In this document: positions 9,297-40,276 of the stretch, in pieces
Position numbering within the stretch: position 1 is the stretch's first letter
Layout of the letters: every line of letters begins with the position of its first letter
Source of the DNA: a phage
Sequence record: OZ346221.1
Length of the DNA stretch: 45,229 bases
Reading direction: 5' to 3' (one strand)
Translations under genes and position numbers: made by a program
Notes under the pieces: model-generated
What the model was told of the DNA's origin: nothing
What the model saw: the letters and a program-made list of their open reading frames with translations, nothing else
Database searches by the model: none

Positions 9297-9356
9297 TTTG
9301 GCGCATTTCTGCGCGTGCTGTATCATTAATCCGTATATCTAAACAGGAGCTTCATT

Positions 9357-10073
9357 ATGGGTTATCAACTTCCTAACGGGTCCAGCGTCCAGATCGGGTC
9401 CGTACTGGGTAGCGGCATCGCTGTTACGGCAGCTACCAACGCCGCAGCGTCGATCTCCGACCTTACGCAAGGTTGCGTAATTACCTGTGCGGCTTCGCAT
9501 GGTCTGGTTGTTGGCGACGTTGTTATGTTCACTAAAACCCCGTGGGTCCGAGCGCTTAACCGCGCATTCATCGTGGGTAAAGTAGACACCAACGACGTTA
9601 CGCTGGCGCGCTTCGACACCAAAGACGTCACAAAATACCCGACCGGCGCTTTCAGCGCAGGCACTCCGGGCGAAGTGGTGAAGGTGTCGGGCTTTATCGA
9701 CTTCCCTTTCATTACTAACGTCGCCGTGTCTGGTGGCGACCAGCAGACTACTACCTTCCAGCCGTTGCAGGTGAACACCGCAATCAGTCTTAACACCACG
9801 AAAAACCCGTTGGTCCAGACTTACACCTTCACCCACGACGAAGAAGACCCGATCCGCCCAATCCTGGAAGACCTGGACGACACACAGAAAACCACTGTGA
9901 TTAAGTTCACGAACCCAGCGGCAGCAAGCGGCAAAGGTGAGATCCGTATTTACCCGGCTAAGGTATCTTTCCAGAAGATTCCGTCCGCTGAAGTAAACAA
10001 CGTGGAAACCGTACAAGCCACTCTGACCATGCAGTCTGACATGGTTATCTACCGTAAGGATCTGGTCGCTTAA
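9357..10073 (+). CDS. major tail protein
   Basis: 238 aa, RBS ACAGGAG, followed by a terminator and then the G/GT chaperone pair and tape measure (lambda V position). Confidence 0.65.
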   Translation: MGYQLPNGSSVQIGSVLGSGIAVTAATNAAASISDLTQGCVITCAASHGLVVGDVVMFTKTPWVRALNRAFIVGKVDTNDVTLARFDTKDVTKYPTGAFSAGTPGEVVKVSGFIDFPFITNVAVSGGDQQTTTFQPLQVNTAISLNTTKNPLVQTYTFTHDEEDPIRPILEDLDDTQKTTVIKFTNPAAASGKGEIRIYPAKVSFQKIPSAEVNNVETVQATLTMQSDMVIYRKDLVA

Positions 10074-10090
10074 ATAGCGGGTGTTAATAT

Positions 10091-10113
10091 GGGGCCAGCA
10101 CGGCCCCTTTTTT
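10091..10113 (+). terminator. intrinsic terminator after major tail gene
   Basis: GGGGCC-AGCAC-GGCCCC hairpin followed by TTTTTT (approximate coordinates). Confidence 0.65.
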
Positions 10114-10114
10114 A

Positions 10115-10492
10115 TTGGAGAATACTACAATGGCTAAAGCACCACTCTTCACACTTGACCCTAAACCGACCTTTAAGCTGCCGATTGAGATCCCGCGTCC
10201 TGGCGAGAACGAGCCGGGCAAGATGACGTTTACCGTACGCCACCGCCCGATCGACGAATTTTCGCAAACCATGCAGGACACCGAACGAAAGCTATCGGAA
10301 TATGACGACAATGACCCAGACGGCTTTAACGTTATGGTCGAGGCCATCATGCACGTCGCGGAAGGCTGGAATCTGCCAGACGAATTTAACGCGGAGAACG
10401 TCCGCCGCCTGGTGGTCAACTATCCGCGCGCGTTCGGTGTGTTTCACACGTCGTACTATCTCGAGCTGATGGGGTTGCGTGAAAAAAACTAA
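10115..10492 (+). CDS. tail assembly chaperone (lambda G-like)
   Basis: 125 aa between major tail and tape measure genes; ends ...REKN with A_AAA_AAC slippery heptamer at the last codons. Confidence 0.65.
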   Translation: MENTTMAKAPLFTLDPKPTFKLPIEIPRPGENEPGKMTFTVRHRPIDEFSQTMQDTERKLSEYDDNDPDGFNVMVEAIMHVAEGWNLPDEFNAENVRRLVVNYPRAFGVFHTSYYLELMGLREKN

Positions 10493-10806
10493 TTGAGGCG
10501 GCGCGACGCTTTTATGGCCCGCCGCCACCCTCCGAAGATTTAGCCGCAAGTTTATGGGGTGCGGCCCCCGAAGATGTTTGTCCGCCTGTTGCGCTATGGC
10601 CCGACAACGCGAAGGTAGTCGCAGTCTTCACAGATTGCTCCACGCAATGGCGCACCGGATTTGGTGGCGCATACGGCATCGACTACGGCGTGCTGGAGTG
10701 GCTATTTAAGATGCACGGTATCGAAAACGAACAGCGCGCGTTTAAAGATATCAAGCTAATGGAACGAATCGCGCTTGATGAAATGGCGCAGCAGAACCCC
10801 GCATAA
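10115..10806 (+). CDS. tail assembly chaperone GT-like fusion by programmed -1 frameshift
   Basis: The -1 frame is open from 10483 to a TAA at 10804-10806 and has no start codon of its own; slippery A_AAA_AAC at 10483-10489 matches the lambda G/GT arrangement. Confidence 0.55.
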
Positions 10807-10810
10807 TGCA

Positions 10811-10964
10811 GCGGGACAGATCGGGACGTCCCGTTTTGTCCCACCCCTGAAATGTGCATACCTATTCGAATTTATTGCATAAACTAAGCGGGACAGATCG
10901 GGACGTCCCGTTTTGTCCCACCCCTGAAATGTGCATACCTATTCGAATTTATTGCATAAACTAA
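10811..10964. repeat. 77-bp direct tandem repeat (2 units) containing the palindrome GGGACGTCCC
   Basis: Two adjacent near-identical units beginning GCGGGACAGATCGGGACGTCCCGTTTTGTCCC and ending TTATTGCATAAACTAA. Confidence 0.8.
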
Positions 10965-11121
10965 GCGGGACAAAAAGCGGGACAAACAAGGGGCGGGACA
11001 AAGCGGGACAGCACCCCGTCCCCACCAGTGCTGCCGCGGGGTTTAGCCGATCGGGACAGCGGGACAGCACCCCAGTCTTTCAGACTAGACGGGGGTCAGT
11101 GGCCCCCCTCGTCTGAGACTG
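10958..11121. repeat. iteron element copy A (six GCGGGACA-type direct repeats plus a GC-rich hairpin)
   Basis: CTAAGCGGGACAAAAAGCGGGACAAACAAGGGGCGGGACAAAGCGGGACAGCACC...CGGGACAGCGGGACAGCACCCCAG...GACGGGGGTCAGTGGCCCCCCTCGTC; flanks identical to the copy at 40113..40276. Confidence 0.75.
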
Positions 11122-11188
11122 AATAAGGATTGTTTTAAAATCGCTGATACAATGACAATCGGCAACTGCATAAAAAGGGGACTGCATA

Positions 11189-13831
11189 ATGGCAGATCAA
11201 GCGGCAGGCATCACGCTGAAGGCTGATGTTGCACAAATCAGAACGGCAAATACTGTGCTGGACTCCTTCGCACAGAAATCCGAGAACACAGAAAACAAGG
11301 TTAAGAAATTAAACGACACCCTCGGCAAATCCAAAAAGGTGACGAGTGACGCCGCGGGCGGAATGGAGAAGCTGGCGACTGAATCGCAGCGCGCCGCCGA
11401 TGGCATGACGAAACAGGAGCGACTTGCCAACAGGTTAGGCATGTCGACCAAAAACCTGGGCTTTGCCTCGCGTAACGCCGCATTCCAGTTACAGGATATC
11501 GCTGTAACGCTTGAGATGGGTATGCCGGTGCACCGCGTCATGCTTCAGCAGTTACCGCAGTTAACTGGGGCGTTCGGTGGATTGGGTAACACGCTGCGTT
11601 TTGTTGCTGGCTTCCTCGGTCCGGTAGGGACCGGCATTGCAGCACTAACGGCAACGTTAGGCGTAGGGGTGGCAATTACGTCCCGCGCGGAGAACCAGGT
11701 CGCCGCGCTTAACAAGACGCTGGCACTTTCCGGTAACATTTCCGGCCTGACGGCAAACCAGATCCTGGTGCTATCCGAGAACGCCGAGCGCATGGGCGGG
11801 TCGTTCCGCAAGACGCGTGACACAATCCAGGCGCTGGCGGCGGCGGGTGTGAAAGCGGGGGGTGACTTCGGCGCACTGGCGAAGGTAGTGAATGACTTCG
11901 CGAAGGTGTCCAGCCAGCCGATCGAGGATGTGGTCGCGGCGGTGGCGAAGCTGTCAACCGACCCCGTTGGCGGACTGCGTGCGCTGGCGGATAAGTATCA
12001 CGTCGTAAACGAAGCGCAGATCCAGCAGGTACAGTCGCTCGTTGATGCGGGTCGTGAGACAGACGCAGTTGCGTTGGCTAACAAAACAGCCGCTGCGTCG
12101 TTCACCAGCATGACCAATGAAATCAAGTCCAACATGGGTACGCTTGAGCGGTCGATGAACGTCGTCACATCGGCAGCCAAATCAATGTGGGACGCCATCC
12201 TGGATGTGGGCCGCGCGCAGTCCTCCAATGAATCCGAGATGAAAGCGCGTGAGTCATTGCAGCGACTAACCACGGCTTACTATGCCGAGATGAAAGCGGT
12301 AAACGCTGCCGGTGGGGTAATGACTGAAGCGCAGAAAGCGCGTATTAACATGCTTTACAGCGAACTGGTCGCCCAGGAGAAAGTAGTGGCGTCGCTCACC
12401 CTGCGCAACCGTGCGGAGCGGGACAACGCCAGCGCCGCGGACGAAGCAGCAAAGGCGAACGAGGAGGCCAACCGCACCGCCCGCGACCGCGCCGCGTTTG
12501 AGAAGGAGTACGCAACCAACGCGAAGAGGCGCGCCGACGAGATCGCCCGCCTCAATTTGCTGAATAAGCGCGGCGTGATTGACGAGAAAGAGCTTGCCGA
12601 GGCGGTGAAGCAGGTAAACGAGCGTTACAAAGACCCCGCCCCGAAGAAGGCCGCGGCTGTTCGCGTGGATGCCGGTATGAAAATGCTGGAAGTTGCACGG
12701 AGCGAACTGGCCCAGCTTCGAGAATCCGGCAAGCAGATCGAAGCCAACGCGTCTACGCAGACCCGCACGCAACGCGCTCAAGCGGCCCTAAACAAGCTGA
12801 TCGCGGATAATGAACAGTTAATCGCAGCAAGCAAAGAAAGAGCACTAACGGCAGCAGAAAAGCAGCAGATGGTCGAATTCGGACGCGTGAAGGAAGTACG
12901 CGAGCAGATCGTCGAAGAAGCCAAATTGCTGGACGCGAAAGAGAAGCAGGTCAAGGCGCACGCGCAGATCGACGCCTTCGTCAAGAACCAGAACGCCGAG
13001 CTAAAAGCCACCGCGGCGGGCTATGCGCTTTCCACTCGCGAAGCGGCTAACCTGCGCGAAGAATTGCAGCTAATTGACCGCCTTAAGCGGGTGGGCGCTA
13101 GCGATACCGATATTGATCTGGCGGTGTCTAAACTGCGCGAAGTGCAGGAAGCACAGACCGGTGCTAACGCCTCGCTATGGGATGGATTCAGCCGCGGGCT
13201 TAAGGATAGCGTGGATGAAATGGGTAACGGCTATACGCAGATGACGTCACTCACAAAATTCACGTTCGGCGCTATGCAGGACACGATGAACGAGTTTTTC
13301 GAGACTGGCAAGCTGAACGCAAAGGATATGGTTAAGTCCATCCTGAGCGAATTAATCAAGCTGGCTACATCGCAAGCATTCAAGTCCATCGTTAGCGCTT
13401 TCGGTGGCGACGGCGGCAAAAACGGATTGTTCGGCGCTATCTTCTCCGGCCTCACTAAGAATGCGGACGGCGGAGCGTACGCAGGAGGCAATCTCGCTGC
13501 CTATTCGGGGAAAGTGGTAAGCCAGCCTACCTTTTTCAGTTATGGCGTCCAGGCGTTCGCTAAAGGCGCTGGATTGATGGGTGAGGCCGGACCCGAGGCC
13601 ATCATGCCACTGAAGCGCGGGCCTGACGGTAAGCTGGGCGTTGCCGCTGCCGGTGTTGGGGGTGGGATGATTGTAACGACCAACGTGAACATGGGGACCG
13701 GTAAGACGGATGCCAGTGTGAGCGGGCCGGACCCACGCACCGCGCAGGCGTTCGGAAAGCAAATCACCGAGGCGGTCAAGGCCGAGATCGTGAAAGCGAC
13801 GAAACCGGGTGGTGTACTTTACAAACGATGA
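11189..13831 (+). CDS. tail tape measure protein
   Basis: 880 aa, long Ala/Gln/Glu-rich helical protein between the chaperone pair and the tail tip genes. Confidence 0.8.
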   Translation: MADQAAGITLKADVAQIRTANTVLDSFAQKSENTENKVKKLNDTLGKSKKVTSDAAGGMEKLATESQRAADGMTKQERLANRLGMSTKNLGFASRNAAFQLQDIAVTLEMGMPVHRVMLQQLPQLTGAFGGLGNTLRFVAGFLGPVGTGIAALTATLGVGVAITSRAENQVAALNKTLALSGNISGLTANQILVLSENAERMGGSFRKTRDTIQALAAAGVKAGGDFGALAKVVNDFAKVSSQPIEDVVAAVAKLSTDPVGGLRALADKYHVVNEAQIQQVQSLVDAGRETDAVALANKTAAASFTSMTNEIKSNMGTLERSMNVVTSAAKSMWDAILDVGRAQSSNESEMKARESLQRLTTAYYAEMKAVNAAGGVMTEAQKARINMLYSELVAQEKVVASLTLRNRAERDNASAADEAAKANEEANRTARDRAAFEKEYATNAKRRADEIARLNLLNKRGVIDEKELAEAVKQVNERYKDPAPKKAAAVRVDAGMKMLEVARSELAQLRESGKQIEANASTQTRTQRAQAALNKLIADNEQLIAASKERALTAAEKQQMVEFGRVKEVREQIVEEAKLLDAKEKQVKAHAQIDAFVKNQNAELKATAAGYALSTREAANLREELQLIDRLKRVGASDTDIDLAVSKLREVQEAQTGANASLWDGFSRGLKDSVDEMGNGYTQMTSLTKFTFGAMQDTMNEFFETGKLNAKDMVKSILSELIKLATSQAFKSIVSAFGGDGGKNGLFGAIFSGLTKNADGGAYAGGNLAAYSGKVVSQPTFFSYGVQAFAKGAGLMGEAGPEAIMPLKRGPDGKLGVAAAGVGGGMIVTTNVNMGTGKTDASVSGPDPRTAQAFGKQITEAVKAEIVKATKPGGVLYKR

Positions 13832-35761: not shown

Positions 35762-35820
35762 TTAAAAAAAAAGCGCCGAGGCAAAATGCAACGGCGCTAA
35801 CCAATAAGAGACAATGAGAC
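35762..35820 (-). ncRNA. candidate ~58-nt small RNA
   Basis: Bounded by a promoter-like element (35827-35855) and a 7-bp GC stem plus U9 terminator; no ORF; predicted RNA GUCUCAUUGUCUCUUAUUGGUUAGCGCCGUUGCAUUUUGCCUCGGCGCUUUUUUUUU. Confidence 0.3.
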
Positions 35821-38708: not shown

Positions 38709-40188
38709 GAGGAAGTCGAATCCTTATATGAACATATTGTTGATGCGGTTGGCGACGGCGAAGAATACGGCGTGTGCACCGATGCGGATCTGGATAACGA
38801 GCCGGTTGCGCTGTTCAGTAAGCACGACCCGATCATCGAGGGGTTGATTAACTTTAAATCGACCTGGTACATGGCGGGTGAGTCGAACATCGGTAAATCG
38901 TTCTACGTGCTGGGGCAGATGGGTGCGGTTGCCGCGGGTATCCCGTTTGGCGGTGCGAAGGTCGTCCAGTCCCATTGCTTCTATTTCGACGCGGAAGGTG
39001 GCGAAGCCTCCAACCAGCGTAAGGAAGCATTGCAGATCAAATACGAGCACGACCTGGACAAGCTGCACATTATTGACCTGCAATCACGCGGCTGGGATAT
39101 CACCAGCAAGTCGGGCTTGCGCGAAGTTATCAGCTTTATCAACCGCACCGCTAACGGCGAACCGGTTGGCCTGGTGGCGTTCGACTCACTCAACCAGACT
39201 GTTGCGCTGCGGTCCGCCGATGCTAAACCGTTCGACGAGAACAACGCCAGCGATATGGGCGAAGTGGTCAAGGCGCTGAAGGCCATTGCGGAAAATACAG
39301 GCGGCAGTGCGGGCGTCATCCACCACCCGGCTAAAGGTGCAAACGGCAGCAGAACGCCTCGCGGGTCCGGCGCGCTTCATGGTGCTGTCGATTCCGCGTT
39401 CTTCCTGGAACAACCGGACGACAACCAGCCCGGACAATTGAACCTGTATCACGAAAAGGCGCGTAACGGCATCAAGCAAGCGCCGCGCGGATTCGTCCTG
39501 CTTAAGTGCAAAGTTAAGGTAGATCTCCGCAAGTCCGAAGCGTTCGAAGCCCACCAGTCCACCAGCGCCGGGCCAGACTTCGGCGATGTGGTTGCCGGTT
39601 GGGACGTCAAGCCGATCGCATCCACGCCACGCGACGAGACTCTTTACCTCGTACCGGTCGCCCTGGCACCGTTCGCCATCGAACAGGCGAAGGCCGCTGG
39701 CAAAGCCGCAGTTAAGGAAGAAAACGCCGCCGTACCGCGCAACGAAAAAGAGAAAGTGCTTTATGCGGCACTGGAAAAACTGATGGAAGATAACCCGGAC
39801 CATACCGGATTCAGTAAATCGGCAATTGTCCGCCAGGCTGGGCTTGCGAAAGGTGGCACATCGACGAAGGCAATCGACGATATGGTCGAGCGCGGCGTGC
39901 TCGGTTTTTATACCGATCCGCACACCGGGGCCATCTACGGGTCGTCGAATATTGTCATTAAAACGAGTATACCCATCACGCTTTCTGCGACCGATGATGA
40001 TTTAAAAGATTAAATGTTGCGCGCATTGGTTGCCATTTCGAGTGTTTTTAGCTGGTCGCATTGGTTGCCGTGTAGTGTAAATATATTGAATAGTTATGCA
40101 ATAAAACTGCATAAACTAAGCGGGACAAAAAGCGGGACAAACAAGGGGCGGGACAAAGCGGGACAGCACCCCGTCCCGCCCCCGGATG
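38709..40188 (+). repeat. tandem duplication unit, copy 2
   Basis: Second copy of the 3' half of the primase-helicase gene, followed by the complete iteron element (approximate coordinates). Confidence 0.8.
38772..40013 (+). CDS. stand-alone paralogue of the primase-helicase C-terminal half (ATPase plus winged-helix-like domain)
   Basis: 413-aa ORF with GTG start and no obvious RBS; about ten amino-acid differences from the parent, most nucleotide differences synonymous; may be an untranslated remnant. Confidence 0.45.
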   Translation: MCTDADLDNEPVALFSKHDPIIEGLINFKSTWYMAGESNIGKSFYVLGQMGAVAAGIPFGGAKVVQSHCFYFDAEGGEASNQRKEALQIKYEHDLDKLHIIDLQSRGWDITSKSGLREVISFINRTANGEPVGLVAFDSLNQTVALRSADAKPFDENNASDMGEVVKALKAIAENTGGSAGVIHHPAKGANGSRTPRGSGALHGAVDSAFFLEQPDDNQPGQLNLYHEKARNGIKQAPRGFVLLKCKVKVDLRKSEAFEAHQSTSAGPDFGDVVAGWDVKPIASTPRDETLYLVPVALAPFAIEQAKAAGKAAVKEENAAVPRNEKEKVLYAALEKLMEDNPDHTGFSKSAIVRQAGLAKGGTSTKAIDDMVERGVLGFYTDPHTGAIYGSSNIVIKTSIPITLSATDDDLKD

Positions 40189-40276
40189 ACGCGGCCTGGC
40201 GGGGAGCGGGACAGCGGGACAGCACCCCAGTCTTTCAGACTAGACGGGGGTCAGTGGCCCCCCTCGTCTGAGACTG
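40113..40276. repeat. iteron element copy B (candidate replication origin)
   Basis: Six GCGGGACA-type repeats plus the same GC-rich hairpin as copy A; directly downstream of the primase-helicase region; followed by an AT-rich stretch with TGCGGNTTG repeats. Confidence 0.75.

What the first reader, a model, noticed from the sequence alone, without database searches (positions are those of the whole stretch)
10483..10489. Programmed -1 frameshift at A_AAA_AAC producing a G-T-like chaperone fusion
The G-like chaperone ORF ends with codons GAA AAA AAC TAA. The -1 frame is open from 10483 for another ~105 codons to a TAA at 10804-10806 and has no start codon of its own. The slippery heptamer sits at the last sense codons, the same architecture as lambda G/GT, so the fusion would be missed by ORF callers.
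Basis: partly seen in the sequence, partly recalled or inferred. Interest (0 to 1): 0.5.

Follow-up and report, generated by a model that had tools for sequence, protein, structure and literature searches.

The report
Tail chaperone G-T frameshift site
This phage makes a long and a short version of its tail-assembly helper protein by letting a few ribosomes slip back one base at AAAAAAC, the well-known lambda G/GT trick; gene callers missed it in all eight related phage records inspected.

Summary
The window is a Dhillonvirus (HK578-like coliphage). A 120-aa chaperone ORF (10130-10492, Pfam Phage_TAC_4) ends GAA AAA AAC TAA. The -1 frame is closed by TGA at 10480-82 and open from 10483 to TAA at 10804-06. 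It encodes a full DUF1799 domain and has no start codon for its first 67 codons. The two frames overlap by only 10 nt, so A_AAA_AAC is the only possible shift site.

In 127 of 127 related loci the chaperone ORF ends in A_AAA_AAC or G_GGA_AAC followed directly by a stop. Among 24 Dhillonvirus sequences the frame under purifying selection switches by -1 at the heptamer.

A hairpin 7 nt downstream (10497-10526) has invariant arms and shows covariation across clades. It is a probable stimulator.

The T1-like phage LL5 has the same two Pfam families and the same heptamer plus stop, and its record annotates a frameshift product. None of eight Dhillonvirus records does.

This is a new member of a known kind: biologically ordinary and useful for annotation. 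It differs from lambda in three ways: a heptamer class measured as weak in E. coli (about 0.2-0.9%), a stop that always abuts it, and unrelated protein families.

The parts
9357..10073 (+). Major tail (tube) protein gene. By analogy with lambda, its product is the presumed binding partner of the T domain.
   Evidence: Pfam Phage_tail_3, E = 1.1e-32. Related records annotate it as major tail or tail tube protein.
10117..10120 (+). GGAG Shine-Dalgarno-like sequence, 9 nt upstream of the G start codon.
   Evidence: Read directly from the sequence.
10130..10492 (+). G-like tail assembly chaperone ORF (120 aa, 14.0 kDa). It is the product of standard decoding and ends ...REKN-TAA.
   Evidence: Pfam Phage_TAC_4, E = 1.4e-23, covering the full length of the profile. 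phrog_569, E = 9.8e-41. Variable sites by codon position are 10/6/84 in this frame.
10480..10482 (+). TGA stop in the -1 frame, immediately 5' of the heptamer. It restricts the frame overlap to the heptamer plus the G stop.
10483..10489 (+). Slippery heptamer A_AAA_AAC (X_XXY_YYZ). tRNA-Lys on AAA and tRNA-Asn on AAC re-pair to AAA AAA in the -1 frame.
   Evidence: Conserved as AAAAAAC (110 loci) or GGGAAAC (17 loci) in 127 of 127 related loci. No variable site between 10481 and 10503 among 24 Dhillonvirus sequences.
10490..10492 (+). Zero-frame TAA stop of G, directly abutting the heptamer (stop context TAAT).
   Evidence: A stop is adjacent in all 127 loci.
10497..10526 (+). Candidate 3' stimulatory hairpin: GGCGGCG (10497-10503) pairs with CGCCGCC (10520-10526). 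The spacer after the heptamer is 7 nt and the predicted energy is about -15.6 kcal/mol.
   Evidence: The stem arms are invariant and the loop varies among 24 Dhillonvirus sequences. The four basal pairs covary across clades; pair 18-41 is CG in 17, UA in 12, GC in 7 and unpaired in 1. The covariation score is 0.310, against 0.128 for shuffles (0 of 500 reach it) and at most 0.174 for slid controls. Its function is inferred.
10489..10806 (+). T-like extension read in the -1 frame (105 aa from CTA 10489 to TAA 10804-06). The fusion product is join(10130..10489,10489..10806): 225 aa, 25.6 kDa, junction ...LREKN|LIEAARR...
   Evidence: Pfam DUF1799, E = 2.7e-21, profile positions 1-80 of 80, matching residues 23-99 of the extension, which lie upstream of any start codon. 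phrog_680 and phrog_17368. Variable sites by codon position are 23/9/71 in the -1 frame.
11189..13831 (+). Tape measure protein gene. Its product is the presumed client of the G moiety.
   Evidence: Pfam TMP_2, E = 6.7e-42, and Tape_meas_lam_C, E = 7.6e-14.

Best explanation

Most ribosomes translating from ATG 10130 terminate at TAA 10490-92. They release a 120-aa G-like chaperone of the Phage_TAC_4 family. A small fraction slip back one base on A_AAA_AAC (10483-89). tRNA-Lys re-pairs from AAA to AAA and tRNA-Asn re-pairs from AAC to AAA. These ribosomes then read CUA at 10489-91 and 104 further codons. They finish at TAA 10804-06 with a 225-aa fusion whose C-terminal part is a DUF1799 'T' domain.

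A GC-rich hairpin that starts 7 nt after the heptamer (10497-10526) probably raises the shift rate.

By analogy with lambda gpG/gpGT, the G part of both products would coat the tape measure protein (gene 11189-13831). The rare T domain would recruit the tail tube protein (gene 9357-10073) to start tube polymerisation. Neither product would be expected in the virion.

What is shown here: the sequence anatomy, the domain identities, the conservation, the frame switch in selection, and the covariation of the stem base. What is inferred: that the fusion is actually made, its abundance, the role of the hairpin, and the binding partners.
For: - Anatomy: the frames overlap by 10 nt, which consist of the heptamer plus the stop.
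- Domains and gene order: tube gene, TAC_4, DUF1799, tape measure gene. The conserved DUF1799 domain starts at residue 23 of the extension, 45 codons before the first possible start codon.
- Conservation: 127 of 127 loci carrying this gene pair end G with AAAAAAC or GGGAAAC followed by a stop. They span T-domain identities from 100% down to about 36%. Rtp, Pseudomonas phage phiPMW and Vibrio phage Vaitephage do the same. The change between two different canonical X_XXY_YYZ heptamers at the same position points to tandem tRNA slippage.
- Selection: among 24 Dhillonvirus sequences, variable sites fall 10/6/84 by codon position in the zero frame upstream of the heptamer and 23/9/71 in the -1 frame downstream.
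- RNA element: there are no variable sites at 10481-10503 or 10519-10526, while the loop and flanks vary. The stem base covaries across clades. LL5 has GGCGGUUU/AAACCGCC at the same 7-nt spacing.
- Precedent within the same protein families: LL5 has a joined CDS labelled 'tapemeasure chaperone frameshift product'. The conserved frameshift was asserted for eiAU ORF22/23 (PMC3025963). phrog_17368 matches the G part at profile positions 1-107 and the T part at 150-212.
- The heptamer works in E. coli: A_AAA_AAC is the proven IS1 site (PMC4066793).
- Functional model for lambda: PMC5009743.
Against: - There is no experimental evidence for this phage.
- In E. coli reporters AAAAAAC is a weak motif. 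It gave 0.163% with no stimulator, 0.189% with the IS911 stimulators and 0.739% with the IS3 pseudoknot. Background was 0.04-0.07%, and GGGAAAG (lambda's heptamer) gave 3.8-43% (PMC4066793 supplement). The fusion may therefore be made at well under 1%.
- A stop codon directly after a heptamer lowered -1 shifting in an E. coli test system (PMC4373837).
- Support for the hairpin is moderate. RNAalifold finds no consensus structure. The 98-nt downstream region does not fold better than shuffles, z = +0.39. The hairpin itself has z = -1.9. Only 17 of 37 diverse sequences have the basal stem in their minimum-energy fold. Some clades lack it in this register.
- None of the 150 listed DUF1799 homologues (of 1113 hits) is a natural in-frame G-T fusion. 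This is neutral evidence.
Confidence: 0.88

Rival explanations
1. Transcriptional slippage. RNA polymerase stutters on the A7 run (10482-10488) and adds one A. A minority of mRNAs then encode the fusion in one continuous frame (...REKKLIEAAR...).
For: The window has a run of seven A. One added A would put the downstream sequence in the same frame as a -1 ribosomal shift (direct reading). Transcriptional slippage is an established route to such products (PMC5009743).
Against: The conserved feature is the heptamer in register, not the length of the run. LL5, Rtp and L085 have A6. Seventeen loci plus phiPMW and Vaitephage have GGGAAAC, with only three A, at the same position. From my own knowledge, efficient slippage by bacterial RNA polymerase usually needs runs of about 9 or more. 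A minor contribution in the A7 phages is not excluded.
Confidence: 0.04
2. The DUF1799 ORF is translated on its own. This could happen by re-initiation at ATT 10492-94, which overlaps the TAA (as gp16 is annotated in Sodalis phage SO-1), or from the internal GTG 10690 (as the 38-aa 'DUF1799' fragments are annotated in several records). Either would give a free T protein and no fusion.
For: SO-1 gp16 is annotated from the ATT. JLBYU37, CS16 and EE09 annotate a 117-nt ORF that starts at the GTG. Most DUF1799 homologues in protein databases are called as stand-alone ORFs of 60-150 aa.
Against: There is no ATG/GTG/TTG in the first 67 codons, and the Pfam domain spans residues 23-99. A GTG start would therefore lose more than half of the domain. 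The ATT is not conserved: other clades have ATA, AGA, AGG or AAA at that codon, whereas the heptamer is conserved in 127 of 127. No Shine-Dalgarno sequence lies at a suitable distance. Stand-alone calls in databases are what gene finders produce for any -1 extension.
Confidence: 0.04
3. A variant of the ribosomal mechanism. Slippage occurs after translocation, with the heptamer tRNAs in the E and P sites and the UAA stop in the A site. Release factor then competes directly with shifting and sets the G:GT ratio. The protein product is the same as in the classical P/A-site tandem slip.
For: A stop abuts the heptamer in all 127 loci and in Rtp, phiPMW and Vaitephage. Slip sites in other phage chaperone genes lie on average 26-36 nt from the stop (PMC10274946). 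In E. coli a stop placed after the HIV-1 heptamer made shifting sensitive to RF2 (PMC4373837).
Against: In that test system the stop lowered shifting rather than raising it. Stop contexts here are not weak: TAAT, TGAG and TGAT occur and no TGAC (the ranking of context strength is from my own knowledge). The adjacency could simply be an inherited feature that fixes the C-terminus of G. It cannot be told apart from the classical model by sequence.
Confidence: 0.2
4. The -1 ORF is a decaying remnant or a chance open frame, and no T-containing protein is made.
For: None beyond the absence of annotation in related records.
Against: The extension is a full-length Pfam domain at E = 2.7e-21. tblastn finds homologues in 789 phage records. 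The substitution pattern is strongly enriched at third positions in the -1 frame. The frame is open in every relative examined.
Confidence: 0.01

Closest known systems
Phage lambda gpG / gpGT (Levin et al. 1993; Xu, Hendrix and Duda 2004, 2013, 2014; as summarised in PMC5009743)
   Same: Two overlapping ORFs lie between the major tail protein gene and the tape measure gene. [quoted passage not shown] The inferred roles are also the same: G binds the tape measure protein and T recruits the tube protein.
   Different: The protein families are unrelated. Lambda has Phage_TAC_2 and Phage_tail_T; this window has Phage_TAC_4 and DUF1799. No similarity is detectable by BLASTP or hhalign. Lambda's heptamer is G_GGA_AAG with five sense codons before the stop. 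Here it is A_AAA_AAC with the stop adjacent. Lambda's motif is about 20-50 times stronger than AAAAAAC in E. coli reporters when a stimulator is present. Lambda T overlaps the start of H by 8 nt; here a 382-nt repeat-rich non-coding gap separates T from the tape measure gene.
T1-like phage LL5 (Drexlerviridae, Tlsvirus), 'tapemeasure chaperone protein frameshift product', MH491968
   Same: It has the same two Pfam families. The heptamer A_AAA_AAC is directly followed by TAA. A hairpin starts 7 nt after the heptamer, with pair changes that are compensatory relative to the window. The fusion is annotated as a joined CDS.
   Different: The T domain is only 35% identical to the window's. The phage belongs to a different family. 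The run is A6 rather than A7. In LL5 the -1 frame is open for 76 nt upstream of the G stop, against 10 nt here.
Edwardsiella phage eiAU (Eiauvirus) ORF22/23, for which the conserved tail-gene frameshift was asserted (PMC3025963)
   Same: The T domain is 45.5% identical to the window's. It has the same heptamer plus TAA and a strong hairpin at the same spacing. The paper links its ORF23 to gp15 of the Dhillonvirus SO-1.
   Different: The paper names no slip site, and the GenBank record keeps two separate CDSs.
IS1 insA-insB' frameshift
   Same: The heptamer A_AAA_AAC is identical and works in E. coli. It is described as a proven case with no established stimulator (PMC4066793).
   Different: It makes a transposase fusion, the genetic context is different, and the proteins are unrelated.
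E. coli dnaX A_AAA_AAG site
   Same: It is an A-rich heptamer with a downstream hairpin in the same host (from my own knowledge; the motif efficiencies are).
   Different: Its last base is G, which gives cognate re-pairing and a high shift rate. The shift there leads to early termination rather than to a C-terminal extension. It also has an upstream Shine-Dalgarno-like stimulator, which I did not establish here.

Membership tests
Conserved tail assembly chaperone -1 frameshift (G/GT class of Xu et al. 2004) | Two ORFs located between the major tail protein gene and the tape measure protein gene | tested here: met
   The order is Phage_tail_3 (9357-10073), then TAC_4 (10130-10492), then DUF1799 (10489-10806), then TMP_2 (11189-13831).
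Conserved tail assembly chaperone -1 frameshift (G/GT class of Xu et al. 2004) | The second ORF is in the -1 frame, overlaps the 3' end of the first, and lacks a usable start of its own | tested here: met
   The overlap is 10 nt. The first ATG/GTG/TTG is at codon 68, inside the conserved domain.
Conserved tail assembly chaperone -1 frameshift (G/GT class of Xu et al. 2004) | A slippery X_XXY_YYZ heptamer, in the zero-frame register, inside the overlap | tested here: met
   A_AAA_AAC at 10483-89. It is the only ORF end of this kind among 92 long open stretches on the + strand.
Conserved tail assembly chaperone -1 frameshift (G/GT class of Xu et al. 2004) | The arrangement and slip site are conserved in diverged relatives | tested here: met
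   127 of 127 loci, plus Rtp, phiPMW and Vaitephage. The frame under selection switches at the heptamer.
Conserved tail assembly chaperone -1 frameshift (G/GT class of Xu et al. 2004) | The fusion protein is made at a low fixed ratio to the short product | not testable with these tools
   This needs a western blot, mass spectrometry or a reporter assay. Reporter data for the bare motif in E. coli give 0.16-0.74%.
Conserved tail assembly chaperone -1 frameshift (G/GT class of Xu et al. 2004) | Both products are required for tail assembly and absent from virions; G binds the tape measure protein and T binds the tube protein | not testable with these tools
   Inferred from work on lambda as summarised in PMC5009743.
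Phage_TAC_4 + DUF1799 chaperone pair (T1-like / LL5 type) | The first ORF matches Pfam PF08748 above its gathering score | tested here: met
   83.9 bits against a cut-off of 21.1, profile positions 1-124 of 124. LL5 G scores 128.5 bits.
Phage_TAC_4 + DUF1799 chaperone pair (T1-like / LL5 type) | The -1 extension matches Pfam PF08809 above its gathering score | tested here: met
   76 bits against a cut-off of 26, profile positions 1-80 of 80. LL5 T scores 48.3 bits.
Phage_TAC_4 + DUF1799 chaperone pair (T1-like / LL5 type) | X_XXA_AAC heptamer as the last two sense codons, with the stop adjacent | tested here: met
   One distant member, Klebsiella phage HSE3, instead has CAA_AAG_CCT_TAA.
Lambda gpG / gpT sequence families (Phage_TAC_2, Phage_tail_T) | Sequence or profile similarity to lambda G and T | tested here: not met
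   There is no Pfam hit to PF06894 or PF06223. BLASTP of G against lambda G gives E = 4.4. hhalign of the T alignment against lambda T gives a probability of 0.85%. Fold-level similarity could not be tested because the AlphaFold2 model has pLDDT 48.
Transcriptional slippage sites | A long homopolymeric A/T run is the conserved feature | tested here: not met
   The run is A7 here, A6 in LL5, Rtp and L085, and A3 in the GGGAAAC clades at the same position.
Stimulated -1 frameshift signals (heptamer + spacer + 3' structure) | A stable structure 5-9 nt downstream of the heptamer, supported by covariation | tested here: inconclusive
   The window has a hairpin of -15.6 kcal/mol at a 7-nt spacing. 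The four basal pairs covary and exceed both the shuffled and the slid controls. The arms are invariant within the genus. Against this, RNAalifold gives no consensus, only 17 of 37 sequences have the stem in their minimum-energy fold, and the stem is absent in some clades.

The most novel reading that the evidence does not exclude
The Phage_TAC_4/DUF1799 chaperone family may use a distinct, family-wide recoding signal. Its parts are a heptamer of the class that is weak in bacteria (X_XXA_AAC), a zero-frame stop that always abuts it, and a hairpin 7 nt downstream. In this reading, shifting competes directly with release factor at the A site (post-translocation slippage). The GT:G ratio would then be set by, and respond to, host termination capacity rather than by the heptamer alone.
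Probability: 0.15. Interest if true: 0.5.

Novelty: new member of a known kind. Interest (0 to 1): 0.25.

Why it matters
The main value is for annotation. All eight Dhillonvirus GenBank records I inspected lack the 225-aa fusion. In its place they carry short wrong-frame or truncated 'hypothetical protein' or 'DUF1799' ORFs. PHROG labels also lead to the chaperone being named 'tail length tape measure protein'. Adding join(10130..10489,10489..10806) would correct the tail module for a phage genus that is widely used in E. coli phage collections and defence-system studies.

For recoding specialists there is a modest point of interest. A large phage chaperone family, spanning Escherichia, Edwardsiella, Pseudomonas and Vibrio phages, has kept a heptamer class measured as weak in E. 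coli. The heptamer always abuts the stop codon, and there is a partly covarying hairpin 7 nt downstream. This makes the family a natural test bed for how low frameshift ratios are set.

Tried and rejected
- The search for homologous proteins with the 225-aa fusion returned only three short hits and no fusion proteins. It was uninformative.
Run with the T part alone, it gave 1113 hits. The 150 listed are all 38-150 aa, so no natural in-frame fusion was found.
- AlphaFold2 on the T part as a single sequence gave pLDDT 48. I did not use the model for fold search, so a fold-level link to lambda gpT is untested.
- PDB sequence searches with G and with T found nothing relevant.
- Folding the 98 nt after the heptamer as a whole gave no better energy than shuffles, z = +0.39. 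RNAalifold on 37 diverse sequences gave no consensus structure. Only the targeted pair count on the hairpin I proposed gave a signal.
- I considered an upstream Shine-Dalgarno-like stimulator (GGGG at 10472-75). I did not pursue it because that sequence encodes the conserved Met-Gly and is absent in the GGGAAAC clade.
- The A9 run at 35764-72 was checked as a possible second slippage site. It is the T-tail of a minus-strand terminator in an intergenic region.
- Literature searches for a described Dhillonvirus frameshift found none.

Full report
**Identity of the window.** A megablast of 9300-11250 finds 159 phage records, nearly all Escherichia phages of the genus Dhillonvirus (HK578-like siphophages). 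The best matches are about 95% identical (SECphi18, ZCEC10-12, mckay).

**The observation.**
- The sequence reads ...TTG CGT GAA AAA AAC TAA TTG..., with GAA at 10481-83, AAA at 10484-86, AAC at 10487-89 and TAA at 10490-92.
- The zero-frame ORF begins at ATG 10130, which has a GGAG 9 nt upstream, and encodes 120 aa.
- The -1 frame carries a TGA at 10480-82. It is then open from 10483 to TAA at 10804-06. That is 107 codons, of which 105 (starting at CTA 10489) would be added after a shift.
- The first ATG/GTG/TTG in that frame is GTG 10690, which is codon 68.
- The two frames overlap by only 10 nt, which are the heptamer plus the G stop. A_AAA_AAC is thus the only place where a -1 shift can join them.
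- Chance is an unlikely explanation. Of 92 open stretches of at least 80 codons on the + strand, only this one ends with an in-register XXXYYYZ. A 105-codon open -1 frame has a probability of about 0.01 at the observed 4.3% stop frequency.

**What the two ORFs encode.**
- The 120-aa product matches Pfam Phage_TAC_4 over the whole profile (E = 1.4e-23).
- The extension matches DUF1799 over the whole profile (E = 2.7e-21, residues 23-99).
- The upstream gene is a tail tube protein (Phage_tail_3). The next large gene downstream is the tape measure protein (TMP_2 plus Tape_meas_lam_C). This is the canonical gene order for a tail assembly chaperone pair.
- PHROGs agree on the families but label them 'tail length tape measure protein'. 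phrog_17368 (213 positions) matches the G part at positions 1-107 and the T part at 150-212, so that family contains joined products.
- The conserved DUF1799 domain begins 45 codons upstream of the first possible start codon. Independent initiation therefore cannot produce it.

**Comparative evidence for the shift site.** Two scans of IMG/VR with the T part, and then with an alignment of five T parts, gave 125 loci.
- In 127 of the 127 sequences analysed (44 loci, 80, LL5, eiAU and the window itself, duplicates counted; the weakest hit, L048, was left out), the chaperone ORF ends with AAAAAAC (110) or GGGAAAC (17) followed immediately by a stop. The T frame is -1 and open across the junction.
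- These loci fall into clades whose T parts are 91-100%, 43-47% and 36-41% identical to the window.
- More distant GenBank phages show the same pattern: Rtp (A_AAA_AAC TAA), Pseudomonas phage phiPMW (G_GGA_AAC TAA) and Vibrio phage Vaitephage (G_GGA_AAC TAG).
- Klebsiella phage HSE3 has CAA AAG CCT TAA instead, an A_AAG tetramer one codon before the stop.
- Two different canonical X_XXY_YYZ heptamers at the same position fit tandem tRNA slippage. The run of A varies (A7 here, A6 in LL5, Rtp and L085, A3 in the GGGAAAC clades). This argues against RNA-polymerase stuttering as the conserved mechanism.

**Evidence from selection.** I compared 24 Dhillonvirus G-T sequences (23 distinct).
- Variable sites fall 10/6/84 by codon position in the zero frame upstream of the heptamer. 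They fall 23/9/71 in the -1 frame downstream, which read in the zero frame is 9/71/23. The frame under purifying selection therefore changes by -1 at the heptamer.
- The short ORFs that some records annotate in other frames or on the other strand of this stretch are not supported by this pattern.

**A downstream RNA element.**
- The window has GGCGGCG (10497-10503) and CGCCGCC (10520-10526). They form a hairpin of about -15.6 kcal/mol that starts 7 nt after the heptamer.
- Within the genus there is no variable site from 10481 to 10503 or from 10519 to 10526. The loop (10504, 10506, 10512, 10518) and the flank from 10527 onward do vary.
- About 68% of third positions in the T region are variable. 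The run of invariant third positions inside the spacer and the stem arms is therefore unlikely to arise by chance.
- LL5 has GGCGGUUU/AAACCGCC at the same spacing and at homologous codons.
- On an ungapped alignment of 37 diverse sequences, the four basal pairs covary. Pair 18-41 is CG in 17, UA in 12, GC in 7 and unpaired in 1. Pair 17-42 is UA in 13, UG in 9, CG in 7 and unpaired in 8. The covariation score is 0.310, against 0.128 for shuffles (0 of 500 reach it) and at most 0.174 when the partner columns are slid.
- The caveats are substantial. The structure was derived from two of these sequences. The sequences are related and protein-coding. RNAalifold gives no consensus. Only 17 of 37 sequences have the basal stem in their minimum-energy fold. 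Some clades lack it.
- I rate the hairpin as a probable stimulator (about 0.55), not an established one.

**Expected efficiency.**
- The systematic E. coli study of all heptamers (PMC4066793) measured AAAAAAC at 0.163% with no stimulator, 0.189% with the IS911 stimulators and 0.739% with the IS3 pseudoknot.
- GGGAAAC gave 0.164%, 0.222% and 0.888%. Background was 0.04-0.07%. Lambda's GGGAAAG gave 0.277%, 3.80% and 43.0%.
- The authors note that bacterial ribosomes tolerate the AAC-to-AAA re-pairing poorly. They list A_AAA_AAC of IS1 as a proven case without a known stimulator.
- The family has therefore conserved a weak motif class. This predicts a GT:G ratio lower than lambda's roughly 1:30, unless the context raises it.

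**The adjacent stop.** Slip sites in other phage chaperone genes lie on average 26-36 nt from the zero-frame stop (PMC10274946). In lambda, five sense codons follow the heptamer. In this family the distance is zero in every locus. Work from the Tate laboratory, summarised in PMC4373837, found that a stop placed directly after the HIV-1 heptamer lowered shifting in E. coli and made it sensitive to RF2. That implies some slippage occurs with the next codon in the A site. [quoted passage not shown] Whether the stop here tunes the ratio or is only an inherited feature cannot be decided from sequence. The stop contexts are TAAT, TGAG, TGAT, TAAG, TAAA and TGAA.

**Comparison with what is known.**
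- The mechanism and gene order match lambda gpG/gpGT, whose function is described in PMC5009743.
- The proteins are not sequence relatives of the lambda proteins. Lambda G is Phage_TAC_2 and lambda T is Phage_tail_T. BLASTP and hhalign find nothing.
- The closest characterised annotation is the T1-like phage LL5. Its record has a joined CDS, 'tapemeasure chaperone protein frameshift product', with the same two Pfam families and the same heptamer plus TAA.
- A paper on Edwardsiella phage eiAU states that the conserved tail-gene frameshift is present in ORF22/23 and links ORF23 to gp15 of the Dhillonvirus SO-1. It names no slip site, and the record keeps two CDSs.
- None of the eight Dhillonvirus records I inspected has a joined CDS: SECphi18, UDS3lw, CS16, SO-1, Haito_Bas83, Ioannina, JLBYU37 and EE09. 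The T region is left empty, split into short ORFs, or, in SO-1, started at an ATT that overlaps the TAA. That ATT is not conserved in other clades.
- A literature search for a described Dhillonvirus frameshift found nothing.

**Verdict.** It is a new, unannotated member of a very well known kind of recoding event. Its value is mainly for annotation. A secondary point for specialists is the family-wide combination of a weak heptamer, an adjacent stop and a hairpin at 7-nt spacing. Synthesis of the fusion, its ratio to the short product and the roles of the hairpin and the stop remain to be shown by experiment. The predicted products are 14.0 kDa and 25.6 kDa, with junction ...LREKN|LIEAARR.... 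The tryptic peptide NLIEAAR would distinguish ribosomal slippage from transcriptional slippage.

Noticed in passing
window 10091-10113: An intrinsic terminator (GGGGCC-AGCAC-GGCCCC followed by T6) lies between the tail tube gene and the chaperone gene. It would lower transcription of the chaperone and tape measure genes relative to the tube gene. The same spot is annotated as a terminator in phage CS16. A terminator also sits at the equivalent place in Pseudomonas phage phiPMW.
   Followed up: partly
window 10807-11188 and 40120-40221: A 382-nt non-coding gap lies between the T stop and the tape measure start. It holds a perfect 77-bp tandem repeat (2.1 copies, 10810-10972), the palindrome GGGACGTCCC, and seven copies of GCGGGACA. 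Six more copies cluster at 40120-40221, where about 45 nt are identical to 10955-11000. The motif occurs 15 times in the window against 2.3 expected. The SO-1 record calls these 'region A' and 'region B'. Their function is unknown; they may be binding sites for a regulator or replication protein.
   Followed up: partly
window 10512-10859, both strands: Short ORFs in other frames or on the minus strand (for example 10554-10709 on the + strand, and 10512-10679 and 10683-10859 on the - strand) correspond to 'hypothetical proteins' annotated in several related records. The codon-position pattern of substitutions supports only the -1 (T) frame here, so these ORFs are probably spurious.
   Followed up: partly
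PHROG families phrog_569 and phrog_680; locus L134 (Haito_Bas83) 142-504: PHROG annotation labels the chaperone and T families 'tail length tape measure protein'. The label has spread into GenBank records, where the 120-aa chaperone carries that name.
   Followed up: partly
window 35764-35797: An A9 run, the only other long homopolymer in the window, is intergenic. On the minus strand it is the T9 tail of a terminator hairpin (GCGCCG...CGGCGC). It is not a slippage site.
   Followed up: yes
locus L141 (Klebsiella phage vB_KleS-HSE3) 490-504: This distant DUF1799 phage lacks the heptamer and ends its chaperone ORF with CAA AAG CCT TAA. That suggests a different slip signal, an A_AAG tetramer one codon before the stop, within the same protein family.
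   Followed up: no
window 22578, 36139, 36305, 45064: Other AAAAAAG or AAAAAAC heptamers occur on the + strand. I did not check their reading-frame register or coding context.
   Followed up: no
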